Positions 1 through 41,460 of a stretch of 41,460 nt of DNA are shown one piece after another; positions within the stretch are counted from its first letter, which is position 1, and each line of letters begins with the position of its first letter. This stretch comes from a virus, in the UHGV virus genome UHGV-0123288. One strand, 5' to 3'. The notes under the pieces were generated by a model, which was not told where the DNA came from, did not search any database, and saw only the letters and a program-made list of their open reading frames with translations. The translations under genes were made by a program, and so were the position numbers.

Positions 1-58
1 CCACCTGTGGTAGGACAGGTGACACCAGCAGATACAAGTGTATCAATTGAATTGACTT

Positions 59-89
59 AGAAGAGCTTAACGGCTCTTCTTTTTTATTA
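59..89 (+). terminator. intrinsic terminator after major tail gene/extension
   Basis: Stem agaagagc / gctcttct with loop ttaacg, followed by a T-run (tttttatt). Confidence 0.8.
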
Positions 90-126
90 CACTGGTTTCA
101 CCAACACCCACAATCATTGCTTTTAA

Positions 127-11095: not shown

Positions 11096-11317
11096 TTCCA
11101 AGATATTTGGTGCATATCCACCAATTACAACAGGTTCATCATCAACAATGTTTTTAAATACAACAGGTAGTGAACGGTATCCTTTTTCCATTAAATACTC
11201 TAATGCTTCTGGTTCTTCATCAACATTGTGTTCTTTATAATTAACTCCTAACTCTTGTAATTTTCGTTTTGTCATTTTGCAAGGCATGCAATTGTTTTTA
11301 GTATATACTGTAATCAT
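11081..11317 (-). CDS. nrdH: NrdH-like glutaredoxin
   Basis: 78 aa with a CMPC redox motif near the N-terminus, glutaredoxin fold length, and its own promoter. Confidence 0.8.
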   Translation of the reverse strand: MITVYTKNNCMPCKMTKRKLQELGVNYKEHNVDEEPEALEYLMEKGYRSLPVVFKNIVDDEPVVIGGYAPNILETIVS

Positions 11318-11347
11318 TCTTAATTCCTCCTATTAGTTGATAGGTAA

Positions 11348-11376
11348 AGTATAACACCTTACCTATCTTTTGTCAA
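11348..11376 (-). promoter_or_regulatory. early sigma-A-type promoter (TTGACA-17-TATACT) for nrdH
   Basis: Minus strand. The -10 is flanked by a 9-bp inverted repeat (gataggtaa / ttacctatc). Confidence 0.6.
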
Positions 11377-11380
11377 CACT

Positions 11381-13672
11381 TTAATCAATATAATTTTTTA
11401 CTTCAACTGGTTTGAATCCTTGTAATTCTCGTTCATGATGCGCTTGTTCAATACGTTCTTTCCAAGATTCACCAAACCAGAGTTCAAGCGTATCTTCTAC
11501 TTGGTCAATATAGTATTGTTTGTCAACTTCATCAATTGTAATACCTTCACCAATCGCTTCATTACTGATTGTGTAGTATTCTGGTGCGTTTGCCAGTCCT
11601 TTTGTATATGAAATGTTATCCTTAAATTCATCAGCTTCAATATCTAATAATTGACCTTCTTTGACCTTAAACAATTCTACTGCATTTGTTTTATCTTTTA
11701 CTGCGAACACACGGTTAACCTTTTGTGCGTTGAACTCATTACCTTCACTATCACGTGCAACCGTTCTATCAAAGGTCCAACCTGTTTTAGTAATGATTTG
11801 AAACTGTCTTAGTTCATTACATTCATGGATAAACTCTTTATAATCTTTACCAGCTACCAGATAATTAATGAACGCATTTGATACAATCGCTTTTGACACT
11901 TTCATACCACCAGTTAAGCCAATAGCACCTTTTACTTTTACTTTTCCATTTGGTTGTACCGCAATGTAGTTGTTTACATCTTTTTGCCAAATTTCACGAA
12001 ACATGTCCTTATCTAGTGTAAGTCCAATCTTGTTAGCAAATTCATCTAATGCTTCATCAATTGCTTTGTCATCTGCTTCACTGTTTGGAATATACGCATG
12101 TGCATCTGTATTTGATTGAATAAATTGTGCTTTACCTTTAATCAATTCATACATGTTCGTCATAATCAATTGACCTGTAGCACAAACTAAGAACTGGTTT
12201 CTTGGGTCATATAGTCCATTAAATTCAGCACCAGATGCACCAAACTTAGTGTTAAGTGGTAACTTGATACCGTTAATCATTACCCAAGTTGGTACTTCTA
12301 CACCCTTAATATCAGCTGTTTCTTCACCTGAATACTTAGCATCCATGCGTTGTTTAAGTAAGTCACTATAGCGGTGAAGTTTATCTTTTGGAATATTTCT
12401 TGATAGTAGATTGAACTGAACCATTGTATTTGGATATAGTGAACCCCAGTCACGCATTGGGAACAATCCAATATGAATATAGCTAGGTACTGCACCATGC
12501 ACACCACCACTACCAAATACCATTTCATAGCCATCTTCTGTAGTGTAGTTTAGTGACACATTTAGTTTACCATTTTCATTTAGTTCAAACTCATGATTCA
12601 AGTAAGCTTCTGCAATCTCTTTTGTATTAATGTTTAATCGTTTATCTAACTCTAATGGGTCTGTCAAGTCTGGTCTAACTTCTTGTTTAGTTGCACCAAG
12701 TAATTTAGCTGTCAAGTTAGCATTGGTTTGTAATAGGTCTGTCTTATCCATGTCAAACATTAAAGCAATAGTTGCTTTAGCTAACAACATACTAATGTTT
12801 TGTTCAAAACGTTTTTCAGTAGCTAATACATCATTCATACAGTATGCAACATTTTTCTCTTTTTCTTCATCTGTCAAAGGTCTATCCATGTCAAAATCTA
12901 CTTCTGTTTCTTTAATGTTGATACCTAAGAATGCTGAATGTTCTTTTAAGCTAAAACCTTTGTTATCTTGGTATAGGTCCATTCCAAACAATGGCGTTTT
13001 ATGACTATCAAACATCTTGTAAACTAGACCCCTATTATCTGATTCAATGATTGTTTTAGACATTTGATAAGCGTTTTTGCCTTGTAAATAGCCACGCATT
13101 ACATTATTATCATATGACGCATTATTATACCCAATGAACATTGAATCACGGTATTCAAGGTAAAACTTGCGTAATTCTTCAAGGTCATTATTAATAATGA
13201 ACCATTCTTTTGTAAAGTAATCACGGAATACAAATAAGTTATCATGTTTAAAAATCTCAATATCAAATAATAAAATGGTTTGTTTTGTTAATGGTTCACT
13301 TGGTTTAAACGGTGTTTCATTACCTTTTGAAATACTTCTAATAGGTTTGACTGTGGCAAAACCATTGCTAAATTTTAAGTCAATTAGTAAACGGTCACCA
13401 ACTTCAACATTTTTCCATTTATCCCAGTCATATTTGCGAAACTTCATGATGTAGCTTGTAACGTCCCTACCATCTTCTAGTGAGCGCATTTTAACTACTT
13501 TCATTTCTTTTCCTTTTGCTGATAACTTTTTGTTAGATTCAATGACAACCACATCATGTTGACCAGCTCGCATTGGGTCAAGACTTCGTGAATTACCTTT
13601 TAAATTACTGAATACTTCCAATAGTTTTTCAGCTAGTTCTGGTGCCTTTTTAAATTCTGCAATGTTTTTCAT
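11381..13672 (-). CDS. DNA polymerase, family B (exonuclease + polymerase domains)
   Basis: Exo I (FDIEI), Exo II-like (YNNASYDNNV) and Exo III (YCMNDV) motifs are present. Pol motif A is DWGSLYPN, a motif B-like sequence is KLPLNTKFG, and a motif C-like sequence is SNTDA. Confidence 0.8.
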   Translation of the reverse strand: MKNIAEFKKAPELAEKLLEVFSNLKGNSRSLDPMRAGQHDVVVIESNKKLSAKGKEMKVVKMRSLEDGRDVTSYIMKFRKYDWDKWKNVEVGDRLLIDLKFSNGFATVKPIRSISKGNETPFKPSEPLTKQTILLFDIEIFKHDNLFVFRDYFTKEWFIINNDLEELRKFYLEYRDSMFIGYNNASYDNNVMRGYLQGKNAYQMSKTIIESDNRGLVYKMFDSHKTPLFGMDLYQDNKGFSLKEHSAFLGINIKETEVDFDMDRPLTDEEKEKNVAYCMNDVLATEKRFEQNISMLLAKATIALMFDMDKTDLLQTNANLTAKLLGATKQEVRPDLTDPLELDKRLNINTKEIAEAYLNHEFELNENGKLNVSLNYTTEDGYEMVFGSGGVHGAVPSYIHIGLFPMRDWGSLYPNTMVQFNLLSRNIPKDKLHRYSDLLKQRMDAKYSGEETADIKGVEVPTWVMINGIKLPLNTKFGASGAEFNGLYDPRNQFLVCATGQLIMTNMYELIKGKAQFIQSNTDAHAYIPNSEADDKAIDEALDEFANKIGLTLDKDMFREIWQKDVNNYIAVQPNGKVKVKGAIGLTGGMKVSKAIVSNAFINYLVAGKDYKEFIHECNELRQFQIITKTGWTFDRTVARDSEGNEFNAQKVNRVFAVKDKTNAVELFKVKEGQLLDIEADEFKDNISYTKGLANAPEYYTISNEAIGEGITIDEVDKQYYIDQVEDTLELWFGESWKERIEQAHHERELQGFKPVEVKNYID

Positions 13673-13703
13673 ATATTAATTCCTCCAATGTGTTTATATT
13701 AAT

Positions 13704-13732
13704 AGTTTACTTTATTAATGTGATTCTGTCAA
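13704..13732 (-). promoter_or_regulatory. possible promoter for DNA polymerase gene (TTGACA, weak -10 TAAACT)
   Basis: aaaacacTTGACA motif. The -10 is poor. Confidence 0.3.
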
Positions 13733-13937
13733 GTGTTTTTGTTGCTAATTTCAACTCACGTTGTAAGAAACCTTCTGTAGCACCATTTGCAAATCTACAG
13801 ATAAGCTCTACACCATCAATAGGCTTAAATGCTTTAGCTAAGATATATGCTTTATCACCTTTGCTACCAATACCATTGTGGTTATCGTTTTTAAGTTCTA
13901 CATATTGCCCTACTTTAAATGTGTTTTTCATTGTCAT
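13707..13937 (-). CDS. hypothetical protein
   Basis: 76-aa ORF with an RBS (aggaggg). The probable start is the second Met (13931). It has its own promoter. Confidence 0.5.
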   Translation of the reverse strand: MTMKNTFKVGQYVELKNDNHNGIGSKGDKAYILAKAFKPIDGVELICRFANGATEGFLQRELKLATKTLDRITLIK

Positions 13938-13953
13938 TCCCTCCTATATGTAT

Positions 13954-13982
13954 ATAATAACAAAACCCCTAACATAAGTCAA
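13954..13982 (-). promoter_or_regulatory. early promoter TTGACT-17-TATTAT
   Basis: Minus strand, upstream of 13707..13937. It overlaps the hairpin aaaaccc..gggtttt. Confidence 0.55.
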
Positions 13983-14001
13983 GGGTTTTGTTTGTTTATT
14001 T

Positions 14002-14709
14002 TTAGAATGGTAAATCATCAGCTGTAATGTCAATTGAGTGATAAACTTCTTCAACTGGTTTTTGTTCTGGTTGGTCCTCTGGGTCAAGAGGTAATGCTTC
14101 TAACCAACCAACGTTGCTTGTTGGGTCTAATTGATTTTTATTAACTGTAACATCAACAACCATTCCAACCGCTTTTTCTGCTGTTTCCCAGTCCACACCT
14201 ACATCTTCAAATAGTTCGTTGAATCGCGCTTTTGCTTTTCCAAGTTTAGCCATGTTAGGAATGAACATTTCTTTTTTAGCAACCCATACCCCTGTGTTGA
14301 AGTTGAATGCGTAGTGCTTACCTTTATGTTCAATAACTACTGAACGTCCTTTAGGTGAATCTTGAATTGCAACAATAGGTGCTTTCTTAATACGTTTTAA
14401 GCTAACCAGTGGTTTCTCAATTTTGATAAAACCGGAGCCTTCTGTGAAGTACGCTTTACCTGTTTGTTCATCAACGTATAACTCAATAGTATTATCTTCT
14501 TCAAATGAACCACCAGCAACTTCTAGTGCTTCATTATATTTTTTCATTGCTTCTTCTGAATCTTCCCATTCGCCAGCTTCTTTATTGAATTGTTGTTTGT
14601 ACGCTACTGCATCAAACATTGCTGAATAATCCTCTTTTGCAACTTGTAACTTAGTTGAAATTTCTGAATCCTCTACACTCACGATAACTAATTTTTGTAA
14701 TTCTGACAT
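14002..14709 (-). CDS. putative ssDNA-binding/annealing protein (acidic C-terminal tail ending DDLPF)
   Basis: 235 aa. The C-terminus (PEDQPEQKPVEEV...ADDLPF) resembles SSB-type acidic tips (DDDIPF / T7 gp2.5-like). It sits in the replication module. Confidence 0.4.
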   Translation of the reverse strand: MSELQKLVIVSVEDSEISTKLQVAKEDYSAMFDAVAYKQQFNKEAGEWEDSEEAMKKYNEALEVAGGSFEEDNTIELYVDEQTGKAYFTEGSGFIKIEKPLVSLKRIKKAPIVAIQDSPKGRSVVIEHKGKHYAFNFNTGVWVAKKEMFIPNMAKLGKAKARFNELFEDVGVDWETAEKAVGMVVDVTVNKNQLDPTSNVGWLEALPLDPEDQPEQKPVEEVYHSIDITADDLPF

Positions 14710-19641: not shown

Positions 19642-19670
19642 ATTATTTCCTCCCTTTATCTTATGTATCT

Positions 19671-19699
19671 ACTATATCATGTGATATAGTAGTTGTCAA
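19671..19699 (-). promoter_or_regulatory. early promoter TTGACA-17-TATAGT with 11-bp-arm inverted repeat operator
   Basis: The inverted repeat is ctactatatca tg tgatatagtag, spanning the spacer and -10. Confidence 0.6.
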
Positions 19700-19702
19700 T
19701 AC

Positions 19703-20998
19703 TTATTTTAAAATATTTTCAATATCTTCATTAGTAAAGTCTTTACCATTTGTTACTGTTTCAAAAATCTTTTTCTCCGTTGGTGTTTCAGGTACAATGT
19801 GATAATAAAGTGGTTTCTTTGTTTGACCATAACGGTCTGTGCGTGCCTTGGATTGTTCATAGTTGACTGATTCTAAAGGCATTGAATTGTAAATTGTCAC
19901 ATTTGCAATAACAAAATCATTAATGCCTGTAGAAGCGGATTTGTAGTGTGCTAACACAACACCGTTGTATTTACCTTTAAATACTTTTAAGTCTTTGCTA
20001 GCGCCATTATATTGACTATATGGACGTTTTAACTTGTCTAATACTTGTTTCAACATTTCAAGTTCCACATTGTAATTATAAAATATAACTATTCGTTCGT
20101 TGTTATGTGTTTCTAAAATAGCCTGTAAACGCTCAAACGGTTCTTTACTTACTTGTTTATTGATTCCTAGCAAGAAACCATGTGACACACAGCGCATTGC
20201 GTTAAATAGTTTACTACTATTATCTAATTCAATCACTTCACCGTTATCCGCCTTGTACATGCGATTCTTTTTCAATTTAGCATACATAGCTGGCTTTTTA
20301 GTCTTATACACAAAGTCCTCTGGATAGTAATCTTTATCACGTGTGAAACGCACTGCAACGCTATTTATCATATCATTTAATAAATGCTCGTTCTGATAAC
20401 CTACAATTTGCATGAAGCGCATTGAACCTAACTGACGCATTTGTTTAACTACAAATAGTTGCTCAAACTCTTTTTTAGGTTTTCTAAAAACATTAAGCAT
20501 AAATAATTGACTATAGTAGTTTTCAAGCTTTCCATTACTAACTGGTGTTGCTGTTAATAGTCTAACATACTTAGTTTTCTTTGTCAACTTCATTACAAAC
20601 TTTGTAACCTTAGAACTAGTTACCCCCACTTTATGTGCTTCATCCACAATTATGAAAGTATCTTCATCAACCCACTTCAATAATTCAGTGATACGCCAAA
20701 CACTTTCAAAACTGATTGCTACTTTATTTGATTCAGCTAATAACTCTTTATTTTTCTTTGTTCCTAAATTCAATGGTGTAATATCAATACCCATTAATGC
20801 ACCATCTTCTGCAAAGTCTGCAACTTTAGGTGCTAAACAGATAACTAATAACTTACTGCACCCAGATTGCAAGTAGGCTCCTAATGCAGTGAATGTCTTA
20901 CCTGTTCCAGCGTCAGATAAATCGTAAGGGTGTGTATTCCATTTTTCAATACCTTCAATTTGCGTTGGTAATAGTTCAATTTTTCCAATCTTAGTCAT
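19703..20998 (-). CDS. SF2 DEAD/DEAH-box helicase
   Basis: Walker A is DAGTGKT and motif II is VDEAH. The start is assigned to Met31 (MTKIGK), which has an RBS (aaggtgga). The longer ORF to 21088 overlaps the upstream gene. Confidence 0.75.
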   Translation of the reverse strand: MTKIGKIELLPTQIEGIEKWNTHPYDLSDAGTGKTFTALGAYLQSGCSKLLVICLAPKVADFAEDGALMGIDITPLNLGTKKNKELLAESNKVAISFESVWRITELLKWVDEDTFIIVDEAHKVGVTSSKVTKFVMKLTKKTKYVRLLTATPVSNGKLENYYSQLFMLNVFRKPKKEFEQLFVVKQMRQLGSMRFMQIVGYQNEHLLNDMINSVAVRFTRDKDYYPEDFVYKTKKPAMYAKLKKNRMYKADNGEVIELDNSSKLFNAMRCVSHGFLLGINKQVSKEPFERLQAILETHNNERIVIFYNYNVELEMLKQVLDKLKRPYSQYNGASKDLKVFKGKYNGVVLAHYKSASTGINDFVIANVTIYNSMPLESVNYEQSKARTDRYGQTKKPLYYHIVPETPTEKKIFETVTNGKDFTNEDIENILK

Positions 20999-22255: not shown

Positions 22256-22332
22256 TATTTGTTTACCTCCATTACACTAATTGTTAATACTGCTACTAAA
22301 GTTAATAATGTTACTACTAATGTTGTTGTCAT
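22255..22332 (-). CDS. 25-aa hydrophobic micro-ORF (MTTTLVVTLLTLVAVLTISVMEVNK)
   Basis: It has an RBS (aggagg) 8 nt upstream. It is the first ORF after the strong TTGACA-17-TATACT promoter, and its stop overlaps the next ATG (TAATG). Confidence 0.25.
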   Translation of the reverse strand: MTTTLVVTLLTLVAVLTISVMEVNK

Positions 22333-22362
22333 TTTAATTTCCTCCTAATTGATTATATACTT

Positions 22363-22391
22363 AGTATAAATGATTGTCTTTATTTTGTCAA
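22363..22391 (-). promoter_or_regulatory. early promoter TTGACA-17-TATACT (second copy at 23114..23142)
   Basis: aaaacacTTGACA motif. It drives the micro-ORF and membrane genes. Confidence 0.6.
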
Positions 22392-22823
22392 GTGTTTTGG
22401 TAAATTAATTTTTAAATTTTTGTCATATCGCCTTGGGTCAAGTGTCTTGTGAACGTCATCTACTTTGTTTAGATAGCTTGTAATTACTTTACCACTTAAT
22501 AGTGACACCACAATACACTGTACTTCTTTGTTTTTTGAATAGTGTGAACGTAGTAAAATGCGCTTGTCTGCGCCTGTTTCGTTGTACTCTACAATTGTAC
22601 TATTTAACATGGTTTTCATTGTCATTTCATATGAAAATTTAGTTTCACCATTTCTTATTTTATCTTGTAAGTGAAAACCAATCTTGATACCACGTTTTAG
22701 CCATAAATCTTTTACAAGTTCTCTAGCGTTATATACTTGTTCAACTTCCTTGTGTGTAAAGTGTGAAGCGTGTTTCTTTACTTGTCCTTGCGTTTTCTTT
22801 ACTGTTCCAATTTGAAAGTCCAT
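22380..22823 (-). CDS. hypothetical protein, 147 aa (copy 1 of exact tandem duplication)
   Basis: Intact ORF with an RBS (aggagg) and its own palindromic promoter. It is 100% identical to 23131..23574. Confidence 0.55.
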   Translation of the reverse strand: MDFQIGTVKKTQGQVKKHASHFTHKEVEQVYNARELVKDLWLKRGIKIGFHLQDKIRNGETKFSYEMTMKTMLNSTIVEYNETGADKRILLRSHYSKNKEVQCIVVSLLSGKVITSYLNKVDDVHKTLDPRRYDKNLKINLPKHLTK

Positions 22824-22852
22824 TTCATATCCTCCCTTTAACTTATGTACTA

Positions 22853-22881
22853 AGTATATCAGTTGGGGTTGAACTTGTCAA
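22853..22881 (-). promoter_or_regulatory. early promoter TTGACA-17-TATACT inside 13-bp-arm palindrome (copy at 23604..23632)
   Basis: The palindrome cagttggggttga/tcaaccccaactg overlaps the -35 and spacer. On the + strand the same hairpin is followed by a T-run. Confidence 0.55.
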
Positions 22882-22894
22882 CCCCAACTGATTT

Positions 22895-23083
22895 TTATTT
22901 TAAATTTTCTAATACTGTTTCAGTTAGTAGAATTACATCTAACATGTTTTCTAGTCTGTCGTTTAGTCTATGTCCTTTTTCGTTATCTCCTTTGTCGTAT
23001 GCTTCAATCATTTCAGCTTTTAATTTATCAAATCTTTCGTTTAATTTTTGTAATTTGTTTTCGTATTTTTCTTTAGTTGTCAT
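22895..23083 (-). CDS. hypothetical coiled-coil protein, 62 aa (copy 1)
   Basis: Identical to 23646..23834 and preceded by an RBS. Confidence 0.5.
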   Translation of the reverse strand: MTTKEKYENKLQKLNERFDKLKAEMIEAYDKGDNEKGHRLNDRLENMLDVILLTETVLENLK

Positions 23084-23130
23084 TTTAATTTCCTCCTAAT
23101 TGATTATATACTTAGTATAAATGATTGTCT

Positions 23131-23574
23131 TTATTTTGTCAAGTGTTTTGGTAAATTAATTTTTAAATTTTTGTCATATCGCCTTGGGTCAAGTGTCTTG
23201 TGAACGTCATCTACTTTGTTTAGATAGCTTGTAATTACTTTACCACTTAATAGTGACACCACAATACACTGTACTTCTTTGTTTTTTGAATAGTGTGAAC
23301 GTAGTAAAATGCGCTTGTCTGCGCCTGTTTCGTTGTACTCTACAATTGTACTATTTAACATGGTTTTCATTGTCATTTCATATGAAAATTTAGTTTCACC
23401 ATTTCTTATTTTATCTTGTAAGTGAAAACCAATCTTGATACCACGTTTTAGCCATAAATCTTTTACAAGTTCTCTAGCGTTATATACTTGTTCAACTTCC
23501 TTGTGTGTAAAGTGTGAAGCGTGTTTCTTTACTTGTCCTTGCGTTTTCTTTACTGTTCCAATTTGAAAGTCCAT
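23131..23574 (-). CDS. hypothetical protein, 147 aa (copy 2)
   Basis: Exact duplicate of 22380..22823. Confidence 0.55.
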   Translation of the reverse strand: MDFQIGTVKKTQGQVKKHASHFTHKEVEQVYNARELVKDLWLKRGIKIGFHLQDKIRNGETKFSYEMTMKTMLNSTIVEYNETGADKRILLRSHYSKNKEVQCIVVSLLSGKVITSYLNKVDDVHKTLDPRRYDKNLKINLPKHLTK

Positions 23575-23645
23575 TTCATATCCTCCCTTTAACTTATGTA
23601 CTAAGTATATCAGTTGGGGTTGAACTTGTCAACCCCAACTGATTT

Positions 23646-23834
23646 TTATTTTAAATTTTCTAATACTGTTTCAGTTAGTAGAATTACATCTAACATGTTT
23701 TCTAGTCTGTCGTTTAGTCTATGTCCTTTTTCGTTATCTCCTTTGTCGTATGCTTCAATCATTTCAGCTTTTAATTTATCAAATCTTTCGTTTAATTTTT
23801 GTAATTTGTTTTCGTATTTTTCTTTAGTTGTCAT
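23646..23834 (-). CDS. hypothetical coiled-coil protein, 62 aa (copy 2)
   Basis: Exact duplicate of 22895..23083. Confidence 0.5.
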   Translation of the reverse strand: MTTKEKYENKLQKLNERFDKLKAEMIEAYDKGDNEKGHRLNDRLENMLDVILLTETVLENLK

Positions 23835-23877
23835 TGTTTAATTCCTCCTCTTAACTTATGAATTAAGTATATCATGC

Positions 23878-23925
23878 GAAAAAAAGAAAGTCAACTGTTT
23901 TAGTCAACTTTCTTTAATTTATTTT
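23878..23925 (-). promoter_or_regulatory. terminator-promoter composite (minus strand) downstream of primase-helicase
   Basis: On the minus strand: hairpin aagaaagt..actttctt followed by a T-run, with TTGACT-17-TATACT embedded (-35 at 23889-23894, -10 at 23866-23871). Confidence 0.6.
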
Positions 23926-25505: not shown

Positions 25506-25535
25506 TCTTATTCCTCCTAAATATCTTATGACATT

Positions 25536-25600
25536 ACTATATCATCTAAAAAAGAGAAAGTCAACTGCTTTATTTAACTTTCTCCCTTATCATAGCATAT
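25536..25600 (-). promoter_or_regulatory. terminator-promoter composite (minus strand) upstream of primase-helicase
   Basis: On the minus strand: hairpin gagaaagt..actttctc followed by tttttt, with TTGACT-17-TATAGT embedded (-35 at 25559-25564, -10 at 25536-25541). It shares gaaagtcaactg with the 23878 element. Confidence 0.6.
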
Positions 25601-27066: not shown

Positions 27067-27098
27067 GTTAGTTCCCTCCTTACTCATCTTATACACCT

Positions 27099-27127
27099 AC
27101 TATACCATCATATATAGTAGGTGTCAA
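27099..27127 (-). promoter_or_regulatory. early promoter TTGACA-17-TATAGT with inverted repeat cacctactata/tatagtaggtg
   Basis: Perfect consensus hexamers. The 11-bp arms cover the spacer and -10. Confidence 0.65.
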
Positions 27128-27132
27128 GTGTT

Positions 27133-27552
27133 TTATTCAAATTCTTTGATACTTTCAATAAGGTTGTTAAGTTTGCGTGCCTTTTTGCCTAAGTTAATTG
27201 CCTGTTGCTCCAAGCGGTCACGCTTTTTGAATAAGTGTTCTGCTTCCGTTGTTAGTGAGTCAATTTTAGCTTGTACACTAGACTTCAAGTCTATAGTTGT
27301 TTTAAAAGTTGGTGTTTCTTCTTTTTCAACTAATTCATATTGTCTTTCTGAGATGAAATAGTATGGATATTCATCATTTAAATAAATATAGCAATCATCA
27401 GTTAAAGTACTCTTATATTCTACAATTTTATATGTTTTACCAATTTCTAAACCAAGTCTTTTGTCAATGTTATGTGGTCCTAAATATTTTGTAATTTTAG
27501 CATATTTTGTCATTTCTTTTTCCTCCAATTTGTTTGTTGTTATCTTATACAC
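27133..27552 (-). CDS. early paralog-family protein A (N-terminal beta-rich domain + C-terminal coiled coil)
   Basis: 139 aa with its own promoter/operator. Its C-terminus ...IESIKEFE parallels that of 27589..27984. Confidence 0.55.
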   Translation of the reverse strand: MYKITTNKLEEKEMTKYAKITKYLGPHNIDKRLGLEIGKTYKIVEYKSTLTDDCYIYLNDEYPYYFISERQYELVEKEETPTFKTTIDLKSSVQAKIDSLTTEAEHLFKKRDRLEQQAINLGKKARKLNNLIESIKEFE

Positions 27553-27554
27553 CT

Positions 27555-27583
27555 ACTATACCATGTGATATAGTAGGTGTCAA
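27555..27583 (-). promoter_or_regulatory. early promoter TTGACA-17-TATAGT with same inverted repeat cacctactata/tatagtaggtg
   Basis: Near-identical to the 27099..27127 element. Confidence 0.65.
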
Positions 27584-27588
27584 GTGTT

Positions 27589-27984
27589 TTACTTAAATTC
27601 TTTTAAAATTTCTAGGGCTTTTTTCGCTTCCTTTAGTTTATTGATTTTATCACGCAATTTAACTTCCTGTCTATCCATTCGTTCCATTTTATCAAATATA
27701 TTTTGACGTTCAACACTTAGTACTTCAATTTTATCATTTAGCCGTTGTTCAACGTCCACTGTGATTGTTGCGGTTGGTTGTTCAAAAATTTCAAATTTTA
27801 TTTTAGCGTATTTGTCATTCATGCAGTATAGAATATAATAACTTCCGTTTTCTTCACCATCATTATCAATAATACATTTATTTGCTACTGTATAAATACC
27901 TCCTTTAGTCCACCAATCGAACCCACCATCTTGTGTGCAAATTAATTTCATACCGTCTTTTAAGTCGTTTTCCGTGTATCTCAT
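27589..27984 (-). CDS. early paralog-family protein B
   Basis: 131 aa. The N-terminal segment GMKLICTQDGGFDWWTKGGIYTV is homologous to that of 28398..28655. Its C-terminal coiled coil ends ...LKEFK. Confidence 0.55.
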   Translation of the reverse strand: MRYTENDLKDGMKLICTQDGGFDWWTKGGIYTVANKCIIDNDGEENGSYYILYCMNDKYAKIKFEIFEQPTATITVDVEQRLNDKIEVLSVERQNIFDKMERMDRQEVKLRDKINKLKEAKKALEILKEFK

Positions 27985-37854: not shown

Positions 37855-39075
37855 ATGAACAAGGCAGAGTTAGAAGCGCAAGCAAAATCTTTGTTGGCAG
37901 AAGGTAAACTTGACGAAGCTAAAAAAGTTATTGAACAGTTAGAAGCTTTGAAAGATAAAACACCAGCTGAAAACGAAGAACGTGCAGAAGATAAAACAGA
38001 AGCACCTAAAGACGAAGTCAAAAAGGAAGAGCTTAAAGAAGAACCAAAGGACGAACCTAAAGACGAAGTCAAAGACAAACCAAAGGAAGAACCAAAAAAA
38101 GAAGAACGTTCAATTGAGAACGCAAAAGGAGAAGATATTGACATGGAGAAAGTAAAAATCAATGGTAAAGAGTTAGCAGAGCCAGTAACAGAACAACGTG
38201 CGTTTTTAGACTACGTAACTTCAAAATCAACTAGCGTAAAATCATTTAACGAAACACGTGCGGTTGATGACGGACAAGTTAAATCAACAGACGCAGAAGC
38301 AATTATCCCAGAAGATATTATCACAAAAGCACGTAAATTACCAGACACAGTTGTTGACTTACGTAATAAAGTGAACAGCATCAAAGTTAAAACATCTGGC
38401 GGTAAATACCCAATCTTGAAATCAACTACTGCAAAAATGGTAACAGTTGAAGAGTTGGCAAAAAACCCAGCATTGGCAAAACCTGAATTTGAAGAAGTTC
38501 CTTACAACGTATCAACTTACCGTGGTCAAATTGTTGTATCACAAGAATCATTAGATGATTCAGCGGACGACTTAGCTGGAATTATTGCTGATTCAGTACA
38601 ACGTCAAGGCTTAAACACAACTAACTTTGTTTTAGCTAACTTGTTAAAAACAGCTACAGGAGTACCAGCAAAATCATTAGATGACATCAAAACACAGATT
38701 AACACTGGTTTCGACCCAGCTTACGGTTTAGAATTAATTGTTACTCAATCATTCTACAACGCAGTTGACATCATGAAAGACGGTGAAGGCCGTTACTTAT
38801 TACAAACTGACATTACAGCACAGTCTGGTAAATCATTGTTTGGTGTTCCAGTAACAGTGTTGAAAGATGAAATGTTAGGTAAGAAAGGTGATAAAGTGGC
38901 ATTCTTAGGCGACCCAGTAGCATTTGCAACATTCTTCAATCGTGCTGAAACTACTGCTCGTTGGATTGACCACGAAATTTATGGTCAATACTTAGCAATC
39001 TTCATGCGTTTTGATGCTAAAGTAGTAGACAAAAACGCTGGTAAATTCATTACATTAACACCACAATTGCCCTAG
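37855..39075 (+). CDS. major capsid protein (HK97 fold) with Lys/Glu-rich N-terminal delta/scaffold domain
   Basis: 406 aa. The N-terminal ~110 aa form a coiled-coil KEE/PKDE repeat region. The gene follows the protease. A possible +1 frameshift extension runs to 39139. Confidence 0.9.
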   Translation: MNKAELEAQAKSLLAEGKLDEAKKVIEQLEALKDKTPAENEERAEDKTEAPKDEVKKEELKEEPKDEPKDEVKDKPKEEPKKEERSIENAKGEDIDMEKVKINGKELAEPVTEQRAFLDYVTSKSTSVKSFNETRAVDDGQVKSTDAEAIIPEDIITKARKLPDTVVDLRNKVNSIKVKTSGGKYPILKSTTAKMVTVEELAKNPALAKPEFEEVPYNVSTYRGQIVVSQESLDDSADDLAGIIADSVQRQGLNTTNFVLANLLKTATGVPAKSLDDIKTQINTGFDPAYGLELIVTQSFYNAVDIMKDGEGRYLLQTDITAQSGKSLFGVPVTVLKDEMLGKKGDKVAFLGDPVAFATFFNRAETTARWIDHEIYGQYLAIFMRFDAKVVDKNAGKFITLTPQLP

Positions 39076-39134
39076 TACACCACCTGTGGTAGGACAGGTG
39101 ACACCAGCAGATACAAGTGTATCAATTGAATTGA
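39067..39134 (+). repeat. 68-nt element at capsid 3' end, identical to 41448..41460+1..55 at major-tail 3' end
   Basis: The shared sequence is ttgccctagtacaccacctgtggtaggacaggtgacaccagcagatacaagtgtatcaattgaattga. It includes the last two codons and stop of both genes. The two flanks diverge immediately afterwards. Confidence 0.95.
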
Positions 39135-39144
39135 GTTAAACACT

Positions 39145-39176
39145 AAGAGGTGGGGCATACGCCTTACCTCTTTTTA
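39145..39176 (+). terminator. intrinsic terminator after capsid gene/extension
   Basis: Stem aagaggt / acctctt followed by ttttt. Confidence 0.7.
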
Positions 39177-39200: not shown

Positions 39201-39401
39201 ATGGCTAAAGTATTTAATGTATACAAGAAAACAGGTGAAAAGATTGTGACTGAACAACCATCACCAGTAACAATCATTGGTTTAACAGCAGAAAAACTAT
39301 ATAGTAAAGGTGATTTTCAAGTAACAGCTATTGAAGATGGTAAGCCAGAATCTAGCAAAGTAGATGTACCAGCATTCACTACAACTGCAACAGCTGGATA
39401 A
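39201..39401 (+). CDS. hypothetical small protein
   Basis: 66 aa with an RBS (aaggagag), bracketed by terminators. Confidence 0.45.
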   Translation: MAKVFNVYKKTGEKIVTEQPSPVTIIGLTAEKLYSKGDFQVTAIEDGKPESSKVDVPAFTTTATAG

Positions 39402-40889: not shown

Positions 40890-41456
40890 ATGGCAGTCGT
40901 AGGATTCAAAAAAGCTATTATCAGTGTACCTAAAGCAGGCGGAACTGGCGTTGATAAATACACAATTGATAATAGCGGTGGCGGTACTATTGAAGCGTCA
41001 ATTCAAGGAATTTCAGCAGAACAAACAACCGTTTATGCGTCAAACGTTCCAATTTGGGTATCAGCTAAAGGAGTTGGAGAGTTAACAGCTTCATTAAACG
41101 TATTTGACTTGTATAAAAACAACGTTTATGAGAAAATTTTAGGTATTCAACGTGGTGAAGATGGTATTGCAATCGTTGGTGAAGATACAGAAGCGCCTTA
41201 CGTTTCAGCAGTATTTGTTGCAGACGGTGCAGACGGTAAAGAGATGTACTTTGGTTTAGTTAAAGGACGTTTCAGCCACCCAGAAATCGCATTGAATACA
41301 ACAGAATCTGGTGGTACAGAACCAAACACAGAAACAATTGAAGGTTCATTTGTAACAGATTCACGTGGCTTTGCATACATGAGTGCTGTTTCAAGCAAAA
41401 CATTAACACTTGATAACTTTGTTGACAAAGTAAACAATATTAAGCATTTGCCCTAG
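40890..41456 (+). CDS. major tail (tube) protein
   Basis: 188 aa, located before the G/GT chaperone and TMP, with a strong RBS (aaaggagag). Its 3' end carries the same CCC-UAG cassette as the capsid gene, which continues at positions 1-60. Confidence 0.8.
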   Translation: MAVVGFKKAIISVPKAGGTGVDKYTIDNSGGGTIEASIQGISAEQTTVYASNVPIWVSAKGVGELTASLNVFDLYKNNVYEKILGIQRGEDGIAIVGEDTEAPYVSAVFVADGADGKEMYFGLVKGRFSHPEIALNTTESGGTEPNTETIEGSFVTDSRGFAYMSAVSSKTLTLDNFVDKVNNIKHLP

Positions 41457-41460
41457 TACA

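What the first reader, a model, noticed from the sequence alone, without database searches (positions are those of the whole stretch)
39067..39139. Identical 'shifty stop' recoding cassette at the 3' ends of BOTH major capsid and major tail genes: predicted +1 frameshift adding the same 21-aa tail
Seen directly: the last two sense codons and the stop of the capsid gene (TTG CCC TAG, 39067-39075) plus the next 59 nt are identical base-for-base to the end of the major tail gene plus its downstream sequence (41448-41460 continuing into 1-55). Both upstream coding sequences are unrelated, and the sequences diverge right after the element into different terminators (39145-39176 versus 59-89). Identity across what should be free 3' UTR, starting exactly at Leu-Pro-stop of two different genes, argues for selection on the RNA itself. 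The features fit a +1 programmed frameshift. CCC-UAG is a classic P-site slippery proline codon followed by a stop (peptidyl-tRNA-Pro can re-pair on CCU). A hairpin begins 5 nt after the stop, with stem cacctgt / acaggtg (7 bp) and loop ggtagg. The +1 frame is open for exactly 21 codons in both copies, giving STPPVVGQVTPADTSVSIEL followed by S (capsid) or T (tail), and then stops just before the terminator. The -1 frame stops within 7 codons. Established knowledge: Listeria phage PSA makes C-terminally extended forms of both its major capsid (Cps) and major tail (Tsh) proteins by +1 frameshifting near the 3' ends, which is the closest precedent as I recall it. Here the two sites are literally the same cassette and the extension is a short shared peptide. 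The result would be a substoichiometric common tag on head and tail-tube subunits, for example a shared attachment or interaction peptide. That arrangement has not, to my knowledge, been described.
Basis: partly seen in the sequence, partly recalled or inferred. Interest (0 to 1): 0.88.

Follow-up and report, generated by a model that had tools for sequence, protein, structure and literature searches.

The report
Frameshift tag docking a split FN3 domain
Both the head and the tail-tube genes of this Enterococcus phage end in the same slippery "CCC-stop" signal, which most likely lets some ribosomes add a 21-residue tail; that tail is the missing first two strands of a small fibronectin-like protein encoded next to the head gene, so one decoration protein could probably snap onto both head and tail.

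Summary
Bases 39067-39134 are identical to 41448-41460 plus 1-55. The window is a circularly permuted Efquatrovirus-like Enterococcus phage genome.

The cassette is not a scar:
- All 57 capsid and tail-tube 3' ends read in the window and 30 relatives carry it.
- CCC, the rarest Pro codon, always sits at the junction (CCC-UAG in most copies, CCC-AGY in five).
- The shifted-frame ORF always stops at the same residue.
- Substitutions show a coding pattern in that frame only.

This supports +1 frameshifting of the SPP1 gp17.1* and PSA Tsh kind.

New here: the 21-aa tail is homologous to strands A-B of an FN3 domain. The 66-aa gene behind the capsid terminator (39201-39401) is an FN3 lacking exactly those strands. 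A homologue was detected by MS in a phage lysate.

The same split recurs in unrelated phages: a capsid or tail-tube protein carrying A-B, plus a separate C-G gene. There A-B is joined by -1 frameshift or in frame. Examples are phiEf11, Lactiplantibacillus and Pediococcus prophages, and Bxb1 tail spike/gp30.

Best explanation: the frameshift makes docking tags on head and tail, and ORF66 completes the fold in trans. Neither translation of the tail nor the complex is shown. AlphaFold docking was inconclusive.

The parts
37855..39075 (+). Major capsid protein gene (406 aa), zero frame, ending TTG CCC TAG
   Evidence: ORF list. Pfam Phage_capsid, E 1e-23. Annotated as major capsid protein in relatives.
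39070..39075 (+). Proposed +1 shift site CCC-UAG. Peptidyl-tRNA-Pro re-pairs from CCC to CCU while the stop codon sits in the A site.
   Evidence: CCC is invariant at the junction in 57/57 copies. It is the only CCC codon in the gene. CCC makes up 8 of 329 Pro codons in the genome. Same site type as SPP1 CCC.UAA (PMC6316719).
39074..39139 (+). +1-frame extension ORF: 21 codons (STPPVVGQVTPADTSVSIELS) plus TAA. Corresponds to FN3 strands A-B.
   Evidence: Coding signature in this frame only. Aligns to positions 5-22 of an independently built FN3 repeat profile and beats 1000/1000 shuffles.
39081..39100 (+). 7-bp hairpin CACCUGU-GGUAGG-ACAGGUG, starting 5 nt after the stop. Candidate frameshift stimulator.
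   Evidence: Minimum-free-energy structure, -11.6 kcal/mol, z -1.3. Variant phages that shift at CCC-AGU have a different 7-bp hairpin 6 nt after CCC.
39145..39176 (+). Intrinsic-terminator-like hairpin plus T run between the extension stop and ORF66
   Evidence: Annotated as a terminator in phage Sigurd.
39184..39192 (+). Shine-Dalgarno-like AAAGGAGAG for ORF66
   Evidence: Read from the sequence. A ribosome-binding site is annotated at the same place in Sigurd.
39201..39401 (+). ORF66: a 66-aa protein that is an FN3 domain lacking strands A-B (strands C-G only). Proposed trans partner of the two tags.
   Evidence: Matches positions 35-90 of the FN3 repeat profile. 473 profile hits, mostly FN3 repeats. 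PHROG 341. A homologue was detected by MS with 94% coverage in vB_EfaS-271 (PMC7503890). AF2 pLDDT is 80-91 over this part.
40890..41456 (+). Major tail (tail tube) protein gene (188 aa), zero frame, ending TTG CCC TAG
   Evidence: Pfam Phage_TTP_1.
41451..41456 (+). Second CCC-UAG shift site
41455..41460 (+). Tail-copy +1 extension, first 2 codons (it continues at window position 1)
1..60 (+). Tail-copy +1 extension, remaining 19 codons (PPVVGQVTPADTSVSIELT) plus TAG at 58-60. The hairpin copy lies at 2-21.
59..90 (+). Intrinsic-terminator-like hairpin plus T run after the tail-copy extension

Best explanation
This is a two-part recoding-plus-docking system.

Step 1 (inferred from comparative evidence). 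A fraction of ribosomes reaching the last sense codon of the capsid gene and of the tail-tube gene pause with the rare codon CCC in the P site and UAG in the A site. They slip +1 onto CCU and add 21 residues, S-T-PPVVGQVTPADTSVSIEL-S/T. A hairpin 5 nt downstream may help.

Step 2 (inferred from homology). That peptide is the beta-A/beta-B hairpin of a fibronectin type III domain and ends exactly at the B-C loop.

Step 3 (inferred). ORF66 (39201-39401) has its own ribosome-binding site and lies behind the capsid terminator. It encodes the rest of that domain, strands C to G. It binds the tag by fold complementation and so rebuilds a whole FN3 domain on the surface of a substoichiometric subset of head and tail-tube subunits.

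Consequences. One small gene would decorate both structures, and frameshift efficiency would set the density. The function of the rebuilt domain is presumably weak adhesion to cell-surface carbohydrate, as proposed for other phage Ig-like and FN3 domains. That was not tested here.

The exact identity of the two cassettes in this genome is explained by gene conversion between the copies, by both having to fit the same partner, or by both.
For: FRAMESHIFT
- The cassette is at both gene ends in the window and 30 relatives, 57 copies and 37 distinct sequences.
- CCC is always at the junction: CCC-TAG in most copies, CCC-AGC-TAA or CCC-AGT...TAA in five.
- The +1 ORF's upstream stop leaves only 11 nt of overlap in several copies, which pins the shift to ACA-CCC-TAG.
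- The extension always stops right after IEL[ST].
- Site entropy by codon position is 0.34, 0.21 and 0.66.
- pN/pS is 0.48 in the +1 frame against 1.8 and 3.0 in the other two frames. Ser AGT changes to TCA or TCG.
- CCC makes up 8 of 329 Pro codons. It is the only CCC in each of the two genes. These are the only two in-frame CCC-TAG sites in the genome.
- Proven precedents of the same site type exist: SPP1 CCC.UAA (PMC6316719) and PSA tsh CCC-UGA and cps CCC-UCC, annotated as ribosomal slippage.

THE TAG IS FN3 STRANDS A-B
- A profile was built from FN3 repeats found with ORF66 alone and extended upstream, so it holds no information from the tag. It places every tag tested at profile positions 5/6-22/24.
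- The window tag beats 1000/1000 shuffles. The PSA tsh tail, used as a negative control, does not align there.
- In a six-frame scan of the whole genome, the best hits are ORF66 (positions 35-90) and then the two tags (positions 5-24).
- The fused tag+ORF66 sequence aligns over positions 3-83 to repeats that Pfam calls fn3.

ORF66 IS MADE
- MS of the vB_EfaS-271 lysate found its homologue with 94% coverage and a score of 79.7.

THE SPLIT RECURS
The same split appears in seven other cases from unrelated phage lineages, with different recoding.
- L. plantarum prophage: G_GGA_AAA-stop, -1 frame, at both capsid and tail-tube genes.
- E. faecalis prophage: A-B in frame on the tail-tube protein, -1 frame on the capsid protein.
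- Loci L033-L035: A_AAA_AAA_G and C_CCA_AAA, -1 frame.
- phiEf11: -1 frame on the capsid protein, in frame on the tail-tube protein, with ORF16 starting at strand C. Two capsid-protein bands were seen in phiEf11 virions (PMC5221750).
- Mycobacteriophage Bxb1: the tail spike C-terminus carries A-B, and the next gene, gp30, starts at strand C. Cryo-EM shows gp30 bound to the spike (PMC12646305; PDB 9d93_Sa).

CONCERTED EVOLUTION
- Within-genome distance between the two tags is 4.5 against 7.8 between genomes, permutation p < 1e-4.
Against: - No protein-level evidence for the extended capsid or tail-tube proteins exists in this phage or its genus. In phiEf11, MS did not find the extension peptides.
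- The AlphaFold2 model of tag fused to ORF66 is confident only over ORF66 (pLDDT 80-91). The tag has pLDDT 44-50, so docking is not supported by that test.
- Foldseek matches of the model to FN3 structures are weak (E 0.03-0.1, TM about 0.5).
- Pfam itself gives no hit for ORF66 or for the fusion. The FN3 assignment is transitive.
- The hairpin is not statistically unusual.
- pN/pS of 0.48 is moderate.
- ORF66 was detected in a 'purified lysate', not in gradient-purified virions.
- I could not inspect the Bxb1 coordinates or read the Bxb1 structure paper. That gp30 and the spike share one FN3 fold is therefore inferred from sequence.
Confidence: 0.6

Rival explanations
1. The +1 frameshift happens and the 21-aa tail is functional, but it works without ORF66. 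For example, it could add a strand to a neighbouring capsid or tail-tube subunit as a cement-like brace, or bind something else. ORF66 would then be an independent decoration or tail protein that attaches by another surface.
For: All the frameshift evidence applies equally here. AF2 did not dock the tag on ORF66 with confidence. PSA Tsh carries a short, unrelated 24-aa frameshift tail with no known partner.
Against: The tag and ORF66 map to adjacent, non-overlapping parts of one FN3 profile: positions 5-24 and 35-90. The break at the B-C loop recurs in eight independent cases, and each time the A-B piece sits directly upstream of a gene that starts at strand C. An FN3 lacking two of the three strands of one sheet would expose its core if left uncomplemented.
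Confidence: 0.17
2. The extension is not translated to any useful extent. The cassette would be a decaying remnant of an ancestral frameshift-appended full FN3 domain, or a DNA/RNA-level element such as a recombination or gene-conversion tract or part of the terminator region. The identity in this window would simply be a recent conversion event.
For: Gene conversion between the copies is evident. There is no MS evidence for extended proteins. The hairpin and fold statistics are unremarkable.
Against: A remnant would not keep the following across 57 copies: an intact ORF, a fixed stop position, invariant CCC, third-position-biased variation and pN/pS below 1 in one frame only. It also would not recur with different slippery sites, and as an in-frame fusion, in unrelated lineages. 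Rfam finds no RNA family here.
Confidence: 0.08
3. The tag and ORF66 are joined into one polypeptide, by ribosome hopping or bypassing across about 60 nt or by RNA processing. The capsid protein would then receive a covalent, complete FN3 domain, as in SPP1 gp17.1*.
For: The two coding pieces lie only 61 nt apart behind the capsid gene. Together they make one FN3 of normal length.
Against: ORF66 is in a third reading frame. It has a conserved ATG and a strong Shine-Dalgarno sequence, and it follows a terminator. The last codon of the tag is not conserved at the nucleotide level (AGT, TCG, TCA, ACT), so there is no take-off and landing codon pair. The tail copy has no ORF66-like sequence downstream. 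In other lineages the two pieces are plainly separate genes with a stop-start junction. The 7.0-kDa product was identified as such.
Confidence: 0.02

Closest known systems
Bacillus phage SPP1 tail tube proteins gp17.1 / gp17.1* (Auzat et al. 2008, as summarised in PMC6316719)
   Same: A +1 programmed frameshift at the very end of the tail-tube gene, on a rare CCC Pro codon overlapping CCU and followed directly by the stop (CCC.UAA there, CCC.UAG here). The added sequence is FN3. The extended form is substoichiometric (about 1 in 4) and points outward.
   Different: SPP1 adds a complete 87-aa FN3 domain, covalently, and only to the tail tube. Here only the first two strands (21 aa) are added. 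The same tag is also put on the capsid protein, and the other five strands are a separate gene product.
Listeria phage PSA Cps / Tsh long forms (Zimmer et al. 2003; GenBank AJ312240 annotation)
   Same: +1 frameshifting near the 3' ends of both the major capsid and the major tail genes of one siphophage, at CCC codons (tsh CCC-UGA, cps CCC-UCC). The Tsh extension is also short (24 aa).
   Different: The two PSA extensions are unrelated to each other and to FN3. The cps extension is a HeH-like motif and the tsh extension is an acidic peptide that does not match the FN3 profile. No shared tag and no partner gene are known.
Enterococcus phage phiEf11 ORF10 (Stevens et al. 2016, PMC5221750)
   Same: A 21-aa frameshift extension of the major head protein was proposed to explain two ORF10 bands in virions. 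I find this extension (IEAPKVESVIPTTDGASIVLS) to be the same FN3 A-B unit. phiEf11 also has an ORF66-type gene, ORF16.
   Different: It uses a -1 shift on A_AAA_AAA-TAG, not +1 on CCC-TAG. The tail-tube protein carries the A-B unit in frame. The authors called the idea speculative and proposed neither a fold nor a partner. The capsid and tail genes belong to different families from those in the window.
Frameshift- or fusion-appended Ig-like domains on phage capsid and tail proteins (Fraser et al. 2006; Lactobacillus phage A2 gp5B/gp10B; lambda gpV C-domain). Recalled from my own knowledge; the papers are cited in PMC5221750 and PMC8718954.
   Same: Ig-like or FN3 modules displayed on major head and tail subunits, often through 3'-terminal programmed frameshifts, and thought to give weak carbohydrate adhesion.
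   Different: In those cases the whole domain is encoded contiguously and is covalently part of the structural protein.
Mycobacteriophage Bxb1 tail spike and tail wing base gp30 (PDB 9d93; PMC12646305)
   Same: The same break point in an FN3 domain. The spike C-terminus ends ...TPPNVSALHVDVSATSTSITITPSGAVDDA (A-B). The next gene starts MPSGLRGYNVYRNG... (strand C onward). Cryo-EM shows gp30 attached to the spike.
   Different: No recoding is involved and the A-B unit is in frame. It sits at the tail tip, not on the capsid or tail tube. Whether the published structure describes a shared FN3 fold could not be checked here.
Donor-strand complementation in chaperone-usher pili and engineered split Ig-like tag/catcher pairs (own knowledge)
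   Same: An incomplete Ig-like fold in one chain is completed by strands supplied by another chain, giving tight and specific attachment.
   Different: Those systems supply one strand (the G strand, or a C-terminal strand with an isopeptide bond). They are not phage FN3 domains and are not coupled to translational recoding.

Membership tests
+1 programmed ribosomal frameshift at a CCC 'shifty stop' (SPP1 gp17.1*, PSA Tsh type) | A P-site Pro codon CCC that can re-pair on the overlapping CCU/CCA, followed by a stop or slow codon | tested here: met
   CCC-TAG at 39070-39075 and 41451-41456. CCC is at the junction in 57/57 copies in the window and 30 relatives.
+1 programmed ribosomal frameshift at a CCC 'shifty stop' (SPP1 gp17.1*, PSA Tsh type) | The shift codon is rare, and the overlapping codon is commoner | tested here: met
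   CCC occurs 8 times, CCT 71 and CCA 237 among 329 Pro codons. It is the single CCC in each of the two genes.
+1 programmed ribosomal frameshift at a CCC 'shifty stop' (SPP1 gp17.1*, PSA Tsh type) | An open +1 ORF under protein-coding selection that starts inside a short overlap | tested here: met
   Overlap of 11-23 nt, fixed stop position, pN/pS 0.48 against 1.8 and 3.0 in the other frames, excess third-position variation.
+1 programmed ribosomal frameshift at a CCC 'shifty stop' (SPP1 gp17.1*, PSA Tsh type) | A downstream RNA structure that stimulates the shift | tested here: inconclusive
   A 7-bp hairpin lies 5 nt after the stop (-11.6 kcal/mol, z -1.3). CCC-AGU variants have a different hairpin at similar spacing. 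The stem overlaps conserved codons, so covariation cannot be separated from coding constraint.
+1 programmed ribosomal frameshift at a CCC 'shifty stop' (SPP1 gp17.1*, PSA Tsh type) | Two protein products with the same N-terminus and different C-termini | not testable with these tools
   This needs MS or western blots of virions. The only related data are two ORF10 bands in phiEf11 (PMC5221750), where the extension peptides were not detected.
Fibronectin type III domain (Pfam PF00041) | A direct match of the sequence to the Pfam fn3 model above threshold | tested here: not met
   No Pfam hit for ORF66 or for tag+ORF66 at E up to 1.
Fibronectin type III domain (Pfam PF00041) | Homology to bona fide fn3 repeats over the whole 7-strand domain | tested here: met
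   The ORF66 profile finds 473 proteins. Iterated search with tag+ORF66 covers positions 3-83 in 793 repeats. Those repeats are Pfam fn3, with E as low as 1e-93. The tag aligns to profile positions 5-24 and ORF66 to 35-90.
Fibronectin type III domain (Pfam PF00041) | A predicted beta-sandwich fold matching solved FN3 structures | tested here: inconclusive
   AF2 with an alignment gives pLDDT 75 overall but 44-50 over the tag. Top Foldseek hits are FN3 domains, but weak (E 0.03-0.1, TM about 0.5).
Frameshift-appended complete Ig-like/FN3 domain on capsid or tail-tube proteins (SPP1 gp17.1*, A2 gp5B/gp10B) | The shifted frame encodes an entire domain contiguous with the structural protein | tested here: not met
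   The shifted frame stops after strand B in 57/57 copies. Strands C-G lie in a separate gene in another frame, behind a terminator, and only behind the capsid gene.
Fold complementation between two chains (split FN3; Bxb1 spike/gp30-like; donor-strand-like) | One chain has an incomplete fold and the other carries exactly the missing strands | tested here: met
   Profile coordinates are complementary. The same split occurs in eight independent cases.
Fold complementation between two chains (split FN3; Bxb1 spike/gp30-like; donor-strand-like) | A physical complex of the two chains sharing one fold | not testable with these tools
   No multimer prediction was available. The single-chain AF2 surrogate was inconclusive. 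No solved structure exists for this capsid protein or for ORF66.

The most novel reading that the evidence does not exclude
Many siphophages of Firmicutes, and at least one mycobacteriophage, may use a natural 'tag and catcher' built from a split FN3 domain. A 20-residue beta-A/B hairpin is placed on major head and tail-tube subunits, by +1 or -1 programmed frameshifting or in frame. Small separately encoded proteins that start at strand C then dock on it by fold complementation. Recoding efficiency would set decoration density, and one gene would serve both head and tail. Some catcher proteins carry their own C-terminal A-B hairpin (P0209, P0118, P0079) and could even chain head to tail.
Probability: 0.5. 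Interest if true: 0.85.

Novelty: new variant of a known kind. Interest (0 to 1): 0.78.

Why it matters
Programmed frameshifts that hang Ig-like domains on phage heads and tails are known, but always as whole covalent domains. If this reading is right, four things follow.
- It explains why short, apparently pointless 20-aa frameshift tails are conserved. One example is the unexplained phiEf11 capsid doublet.
- It explains why tiny 'major tail protein' ORFs sit behind capsid genes in more than 100 Enterococcus phage genomes. They are mis-annotated catcher halves of a split domain.
- It shows a new way for a virus to set decoration stoichiometry: recoding frequency multiplied by non-covalent docking.
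- It hands phage engineers a ready-made peptide tag and partner for display on therapeutic Enterococcus phages.

It is directly testable with MS, a peptide-binding assay and one cryo-EM map.

Tried and rejected
- Pfam on ORF66, on tag+ORF66 and on the two structural proteins gave no domain for ORF66 or the fusion.
- The word-indexed protein search with the fusion returned only close Efquatrovirus ORF66 homologues and no protein spanning both halves.
- AF2 of the fusion without an alignment was poor (pLDDT 56). AF2 with an ORF66-family alignment left the tag at low confidence.
- PDB sequence searches found no solved relative of the capsid protein and only distant tail-tube relatives.
- Rfam found nothing in the window.
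- Ribosome hopping from the tag stop to ORF66 was considered and rejected. The frames differ, there are no matched take-off and landing codons, ORF66 has its own RBS, and the tail copy has no downstream partner.
- The Brochothrix NF5 structure paper mentions no frameshift, and it reports that the NF5 capsid lacks decoration proteins.
- The Bxb1 structure paper (PMC12124961) is not held, and a mycobacteriophage baseplate preprint was uninformative. I therefore could not confirm that the spike/gp30 FN3 is described as a shared fold.
- A covalent (isopeptide) tag-catcher idea was prompted by phiEf11 ORF15 running at 28-30 kDa against a predicted 21.5 kDa. I dropped it because the mass does not fit ORF15+ORF16 (about 37 kDa) and nothing else supports it.
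- Co-variation between tag variants and ORF66 variants was looked at informally. The tag type T-T-E-T goes with the longer ORF66 type, but the capsid-end tag lies only about 60 nt upstream of ORF66, so linkage explains this equally well.
Full report
WHAT THE WINDOW IS

The 41,460-bp window is a circularly permuted genome of an Enterococcus siphophage. It is 96-97% identical to phages vB_EfaS_159, Q69 and MSF2 over the head-tail module, and related to more than 100 phages of or near the genus Efquatrovirus.
- Gene 37855-39075 is the HK97-type major capsid protein (MCP).
- Gene 40890-41456 is the tail tube / major tail protein (MTP).

CHECK OF THE OBSERVATION

Bases 39067-39134 are identical to 41448-41460 followed by 1-55, which is 68 nt. 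The match starts at the Leu codon before CCC-TAG and ends one base before the last sense codon of the +1 ORF. Relatives show the tail-gene end running into the same downstream sequence, so the wrap across the window ends is real.
- The +1 frame is open for 21 codons in both copies. It stops at 39137-39139 and at 58-60.
- The -1 frame closes after 7 codons.
- The 7-bp hairpin at 39081-39100 is the predicted fold. It is not unusual against shuffles (-11.6 kcal/mol, z -1.3).
- Distinct terminator-like hairpins follow the two copies.

IS IT A SCAR OR A CONSERVED ELEMENT?

I read both gene ends in the window and 30 relatives: 9 GenBank phages and 21 IMG/VR contigs. Every MCP end and every MTP end present on the retrieved sequence carries the element, giving 57 copies and 37 distinct nucleotide sequences.

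Features of the shift site:
- CCC is always at the junction. Most copies read CCC-TAG. Five read CCC-AGC-TAA or CCC-AGT-(1-4 codons)-TAA.
- In several copies a stop in the +1 frame lies only 11 nt upstream of the end of the zero-frame stop (...ACT ACA CCC TAG). Any shift must therefore occur on the last two or three codons.
- The +1 ORF always ends right after I-E-L-[S/T].

Evidence that the +1 frame is read as protein:
- Variation is concentrated at third codon positions of the +1 frame (entropy 0.66, against 0.34 and 0.21).
- pN/pS is 0.48 in that frame, against 1.8 and 3.0 in the other two, which are full of stops.
- Serine codons switch between AGT and TCA or TCG.
- CCC is the rarest proline codon in the genome (8 of 329). 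It occurs once in each of the two genes, at the shift site. These are the only two in-frame CCC-TAG sites.

Together this is the signature of a translated, selected extension reached by +1 slippage of peptidyl-tRNA-Pro from CCC to CCU with a stop codon in the A site. That is the mechanism shown experimentally for SPP1 gp17.1* at CCC.UAA (PMC6316719). It is also annotated for PSA tsh (CCC-UGA) and cps (CCC-UCC).

The variant phages that shift on CCC-AGU lack the usual hairpin. They have a different 7-bp hairpin 6 nt after CCC. This hints that a downstream structure matters, but I count the point as inconclusive.

WHY THE TWO COPIES ARE IDENTICAL HERE

In 22 genomes with distinct pairs, the capsid and tail copies differ at 0-17 of 54 core positions. 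Within-genome distances (mean 4.5) are smaller than between-genome distances (7.8), with permutation p < 1e-4. The copies therefore evolve in concert, by gene conversion, by selection to fit a common partner, or by both. The window happens to be a case with zero differences. The identity is not evidence of selection on the RNA as such.

WHAT THE 21-RESIDUE TAIL IS

The gene just behind the capsid terminator, ORF66 (39201-39401), has its own AAAGGAGAG ribosome-binding site. Relatives annotate it as 'major tail protein' or 'tail tube protein' because it hits PHROG 341.

Evidence that ORF66 is an FN3 domain lacking its first two strands:
- A profile of ORF66 homologues finds 473 proteins in 1.8 billion. 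Most of the best-scoring ones are long proteins with many matched stretches, and those checked with Pfam (P0094, P0097) are strong fn3 (PF00041).
- Against solved structures, the profile aligns ORF66 residues 16-52 to residues 45-80 of the 91-residue fibronectin FN3-10 module (E 0.66, so weak on its own).

ORF66 therefore starts at about strand C. It lacks strands A and B, which form two of the three strands of one sheet.

Evidence that the tail supplies the missing strands:
- I built a profile from FN3 repeats found with ORF66 alone and extended 32 residues upstream, so it contains no information from the tail.
- Every tail tested aligns to the same profile positions, 5/6-22/24. That is the A-B hairpin, ending at the B-C loop.
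- The window's tail beats 1000 of 1000 composition-preserving shuffles.
- The unrelated PSA Tsh tail, used as a negative control, does not align there.
- In an unbiased six-frame scan of the whole genome, the best hit is ORF66 (positions 35-90). The next hits are the two tails (positions 5-24).
- The concatenated tail+ORF66 sequence aligns over positions 3-83 to hundreds of complete FN3 repeats.

The genome thus encodes one 'C-G' half and two 'A-B' halves of a single FN3 domain.

IS ORF66 MADE?

In the related phage vB_EfaS-271, the 7.0-kDa homologue (gp11) was found by mass spectrometry with 94% coverage. Its protein score (79.7) was far higher than that of the tail-tube protein (PMC7503890). 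The sample was a purified lysate, so this shows expression and likely particle association, not location.

THE SAME SPLIT ELSEWHERE

Small homologues of ORF66 are common in prophages of Lactobacillales. In every context I opened, an orphan A-B unit lies directly upstream of the gene that starts at strand C. It usually also lies at the end of the other major structural gene. The way it is joined differs from case to case.
- L. plantarum prophage (L031): both MCP and MTP end ACG-GGA-AAA-stop. This is the classical G_GGA_AAA slippery heptamer. The -1 frame gives ...APSKIEVKPTNDGAVITSM* and ...APSSVKSTPTSDGATITSM*, with a 9-bp hairpin downstream.
- E. faecalis prophage (L032): the MTP carries ...PKVESITPTSDGAVVKVKEEE* in frame, and the C-G gene starts 3 nt later. 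The MCP reaches its A-B unit in the -1 frame.
- L033: the MTP has a -1 A-B tail followed by the C-G gene. Its MCP instead gains what appears to be a Big_2 domain in the -1 frame at A_AAA_AAA_G.
- L034: both the MCP (-1 at A_AAA_AAA_G) and the gene just upstream of the C-G gene, which has no Pfam match and is presumed to be the tail tube, have a -1 A-B tail.
- L035: MCP -1 at A_AAA_AAA_G, MTP -1 at C_CCA_AAA.
- phiEf11 (L038): the MCP ends AAA-AAA-TAG and the -1 frame gives a 21-aa A-B tail. The MTP has the unit in frame. ORF16 starts MVDTFKIYKG... at strand C and continues into a second domain of about 90 residues, which I did not check against Pfam. Stevens et al. proposed exactly this 21-aa -1 extension to explain two ORF10 bands in virions. 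They could not find its peptides and offered no function (PMC5221750).
- Mycobacteriophage Bxb1 (L036): the tail spike ends ...TPPNVSALHVDVSATSTSITITPSGAVDDA*. The overlapping next gene, gp30 (tail wing base, PDB 9d93_Sa, the top PDB hit of the ORF66 profile), begins MPSGLRGYNVYRNG.... A later paper states that cryo-EM shows gp30 bound to the tail spike (PMC12646305).

Together with Efquatrovirus, that is eight independent cases. They have unrelated capsid and tail families and four different joining devices, and all break the domain at the B-C loop. This is hard to explain unless the two halves work together.

STRUCTURE PREDICTION

- AlphaFold2 on tail+ORF66 as one chain without an alignment was poor (pLDDT 56).
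- With a 76-sequence ORF66-family alignment that carries no information about the tail, ORF66 became confident (80-91). The tail stayed at 44-50, with short strands at residues 7-9 and 16-18.
- Foldseek places the model among FN3 domains, but weakly.

This test neither supports nor contradicts docking.

MECHANISM PROPOSED

1. Inferred, strong: +1 frameshifting at CCC-UAG tags a minority of MCP and MTP subunits with the A-B hairpin.
2. Inferred from homology and recurrence, moderate: ORF66 binds the tag by completing the FN3 sandwich. This decorates head and tail tube at a density set by frameshift efficiency.
3. Presumed by analogy with SPP1 and other phage Ig-like domains, untested: the rebuilt domain aids reversible adhesion to the cell surface.

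Rivals are a functional tag that does not involve ORF66, an untranslated remnant, and covalent joining by bypassing. Each is set out with its evidence in the Rival explanations section.

COMPARISON AND NOVELTY

The recoding signal is a new member of a known kind (SPP1, PSA). A 21-aa frameshift tail on an Enterococcus phage capsid protein has been suggested before (phiEf11). Three things are not described in anything I could search:
- the tail is half of an FN3 domain;
- the other half is a separate, mis-annotated small gene;
- this split-domain arrangement recurs across phage lineages and on both head and tail.

I rate it a new variant of a known kind.

LIMITS

Everything about translation of the tail and about the complex is inference from sequence. 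No proteomic, reporter or structural data exist for this genus. The FN3 assignment is transitive, because Pfam itself is silent.

Noticed in passing
window 22325-23835: An exact tandem duplication. w[i]=w[i+751] holds for 760 consecutive bases (22325-23084 against 23076-23835), so there are two perfect copies of a 751-bp unit in the minus-strand early region. It could be a real recent duplication or an assembly artefact.
   Followed up: partly
window 19657-19728, 23852-23913, 25522-25583, 27086-27156, 27541-27612: A family of 60-70-nt intergenic repeats (61-89% identity to the reference copies, the repeat finder D2/D3). The 27.1-kb and 27.5-kb copies contain a palindrome, ACACCTACTATACCAT...ATATAGTAGGTGT. 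They look like repeated promoter or operator regions of the leftward early genes.
   Followed up: no
window 39201-39401 and its homologues in GenBank relatives (for example L001 3224-3424, L008 3449-3649): ORF66 homologues are annotated as 'major tail protein' or 'tail tube protein' in many records. This appears to be a transfer from PHROG 341, whose members share only the FN3 part. The real tail-tube gene lies 1.5 kb downstream.
   Followed up: yes
proteins P0209, P0118, P0079, P0106, P0185 (L031 4001-4261 for P0209): Many ORF66-like proteins in Lactobacillales prophages carry their own orphan A-B hairpin at the C-terminus after a Pro/Ala-rich linker, for example ...PVPVLGSVTPTADGAEIELT*. They could fold as circular permutants. 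They could also chain head to tail by strand exchange on top of the tagged capsid or tail subunit.
   Followed up: partly
L036 (Bxb1 AF271693) 11185-14521: The Bxb1 tail spike C-terminus and the gp30 N-terminus split an FN3 domain at the same B-C loop, with overlapping stop and start codons. gp30 is known to sit on the spike.
   Followed up: partly
L033 2040-2371: In this Pediococcus-like phage contig, the capsid gene ends GCA-AAA-AAA-GCG-TAA. The -1 frame runs on into a called 77-aa gene that Pfam marks as Big_2. This looks like a classical -1 frameshift adding a complete Ig-like domain, in the same genome that uses the split FN3 on its tail tube.
   Followed up: partly
L037 (PSA AJ312240) 5110-5290; proteins P0249, P0259, P0102: The PSA Cps frameshift extension is a HeH/SAP-like motif (MKVVELKEELDKRGITYNTSDLKSDLILKLEE). 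A similar motif (TIEEIKxWLxxHxIxFxGKTxKxDLLALVP) forms the C-terminal half of several ORF66-like proteins.
   Followed up: no
phage TwoStep PV544182 (hit H4): This close relative has a homing endonuclease annotated inside the head-tail module, which splits the alignment into two pieces. The window lacks it.
   Followed up: no
window 172 to about 500: This is the tail assembly chaperone gene downstream of the tail-copy terminator. Relatives annotate a -1 frameshift product here (for example Sigurd, on a double-lysine site). If so, the genome probably uses three programmed frameshifts.
   Followed up: no
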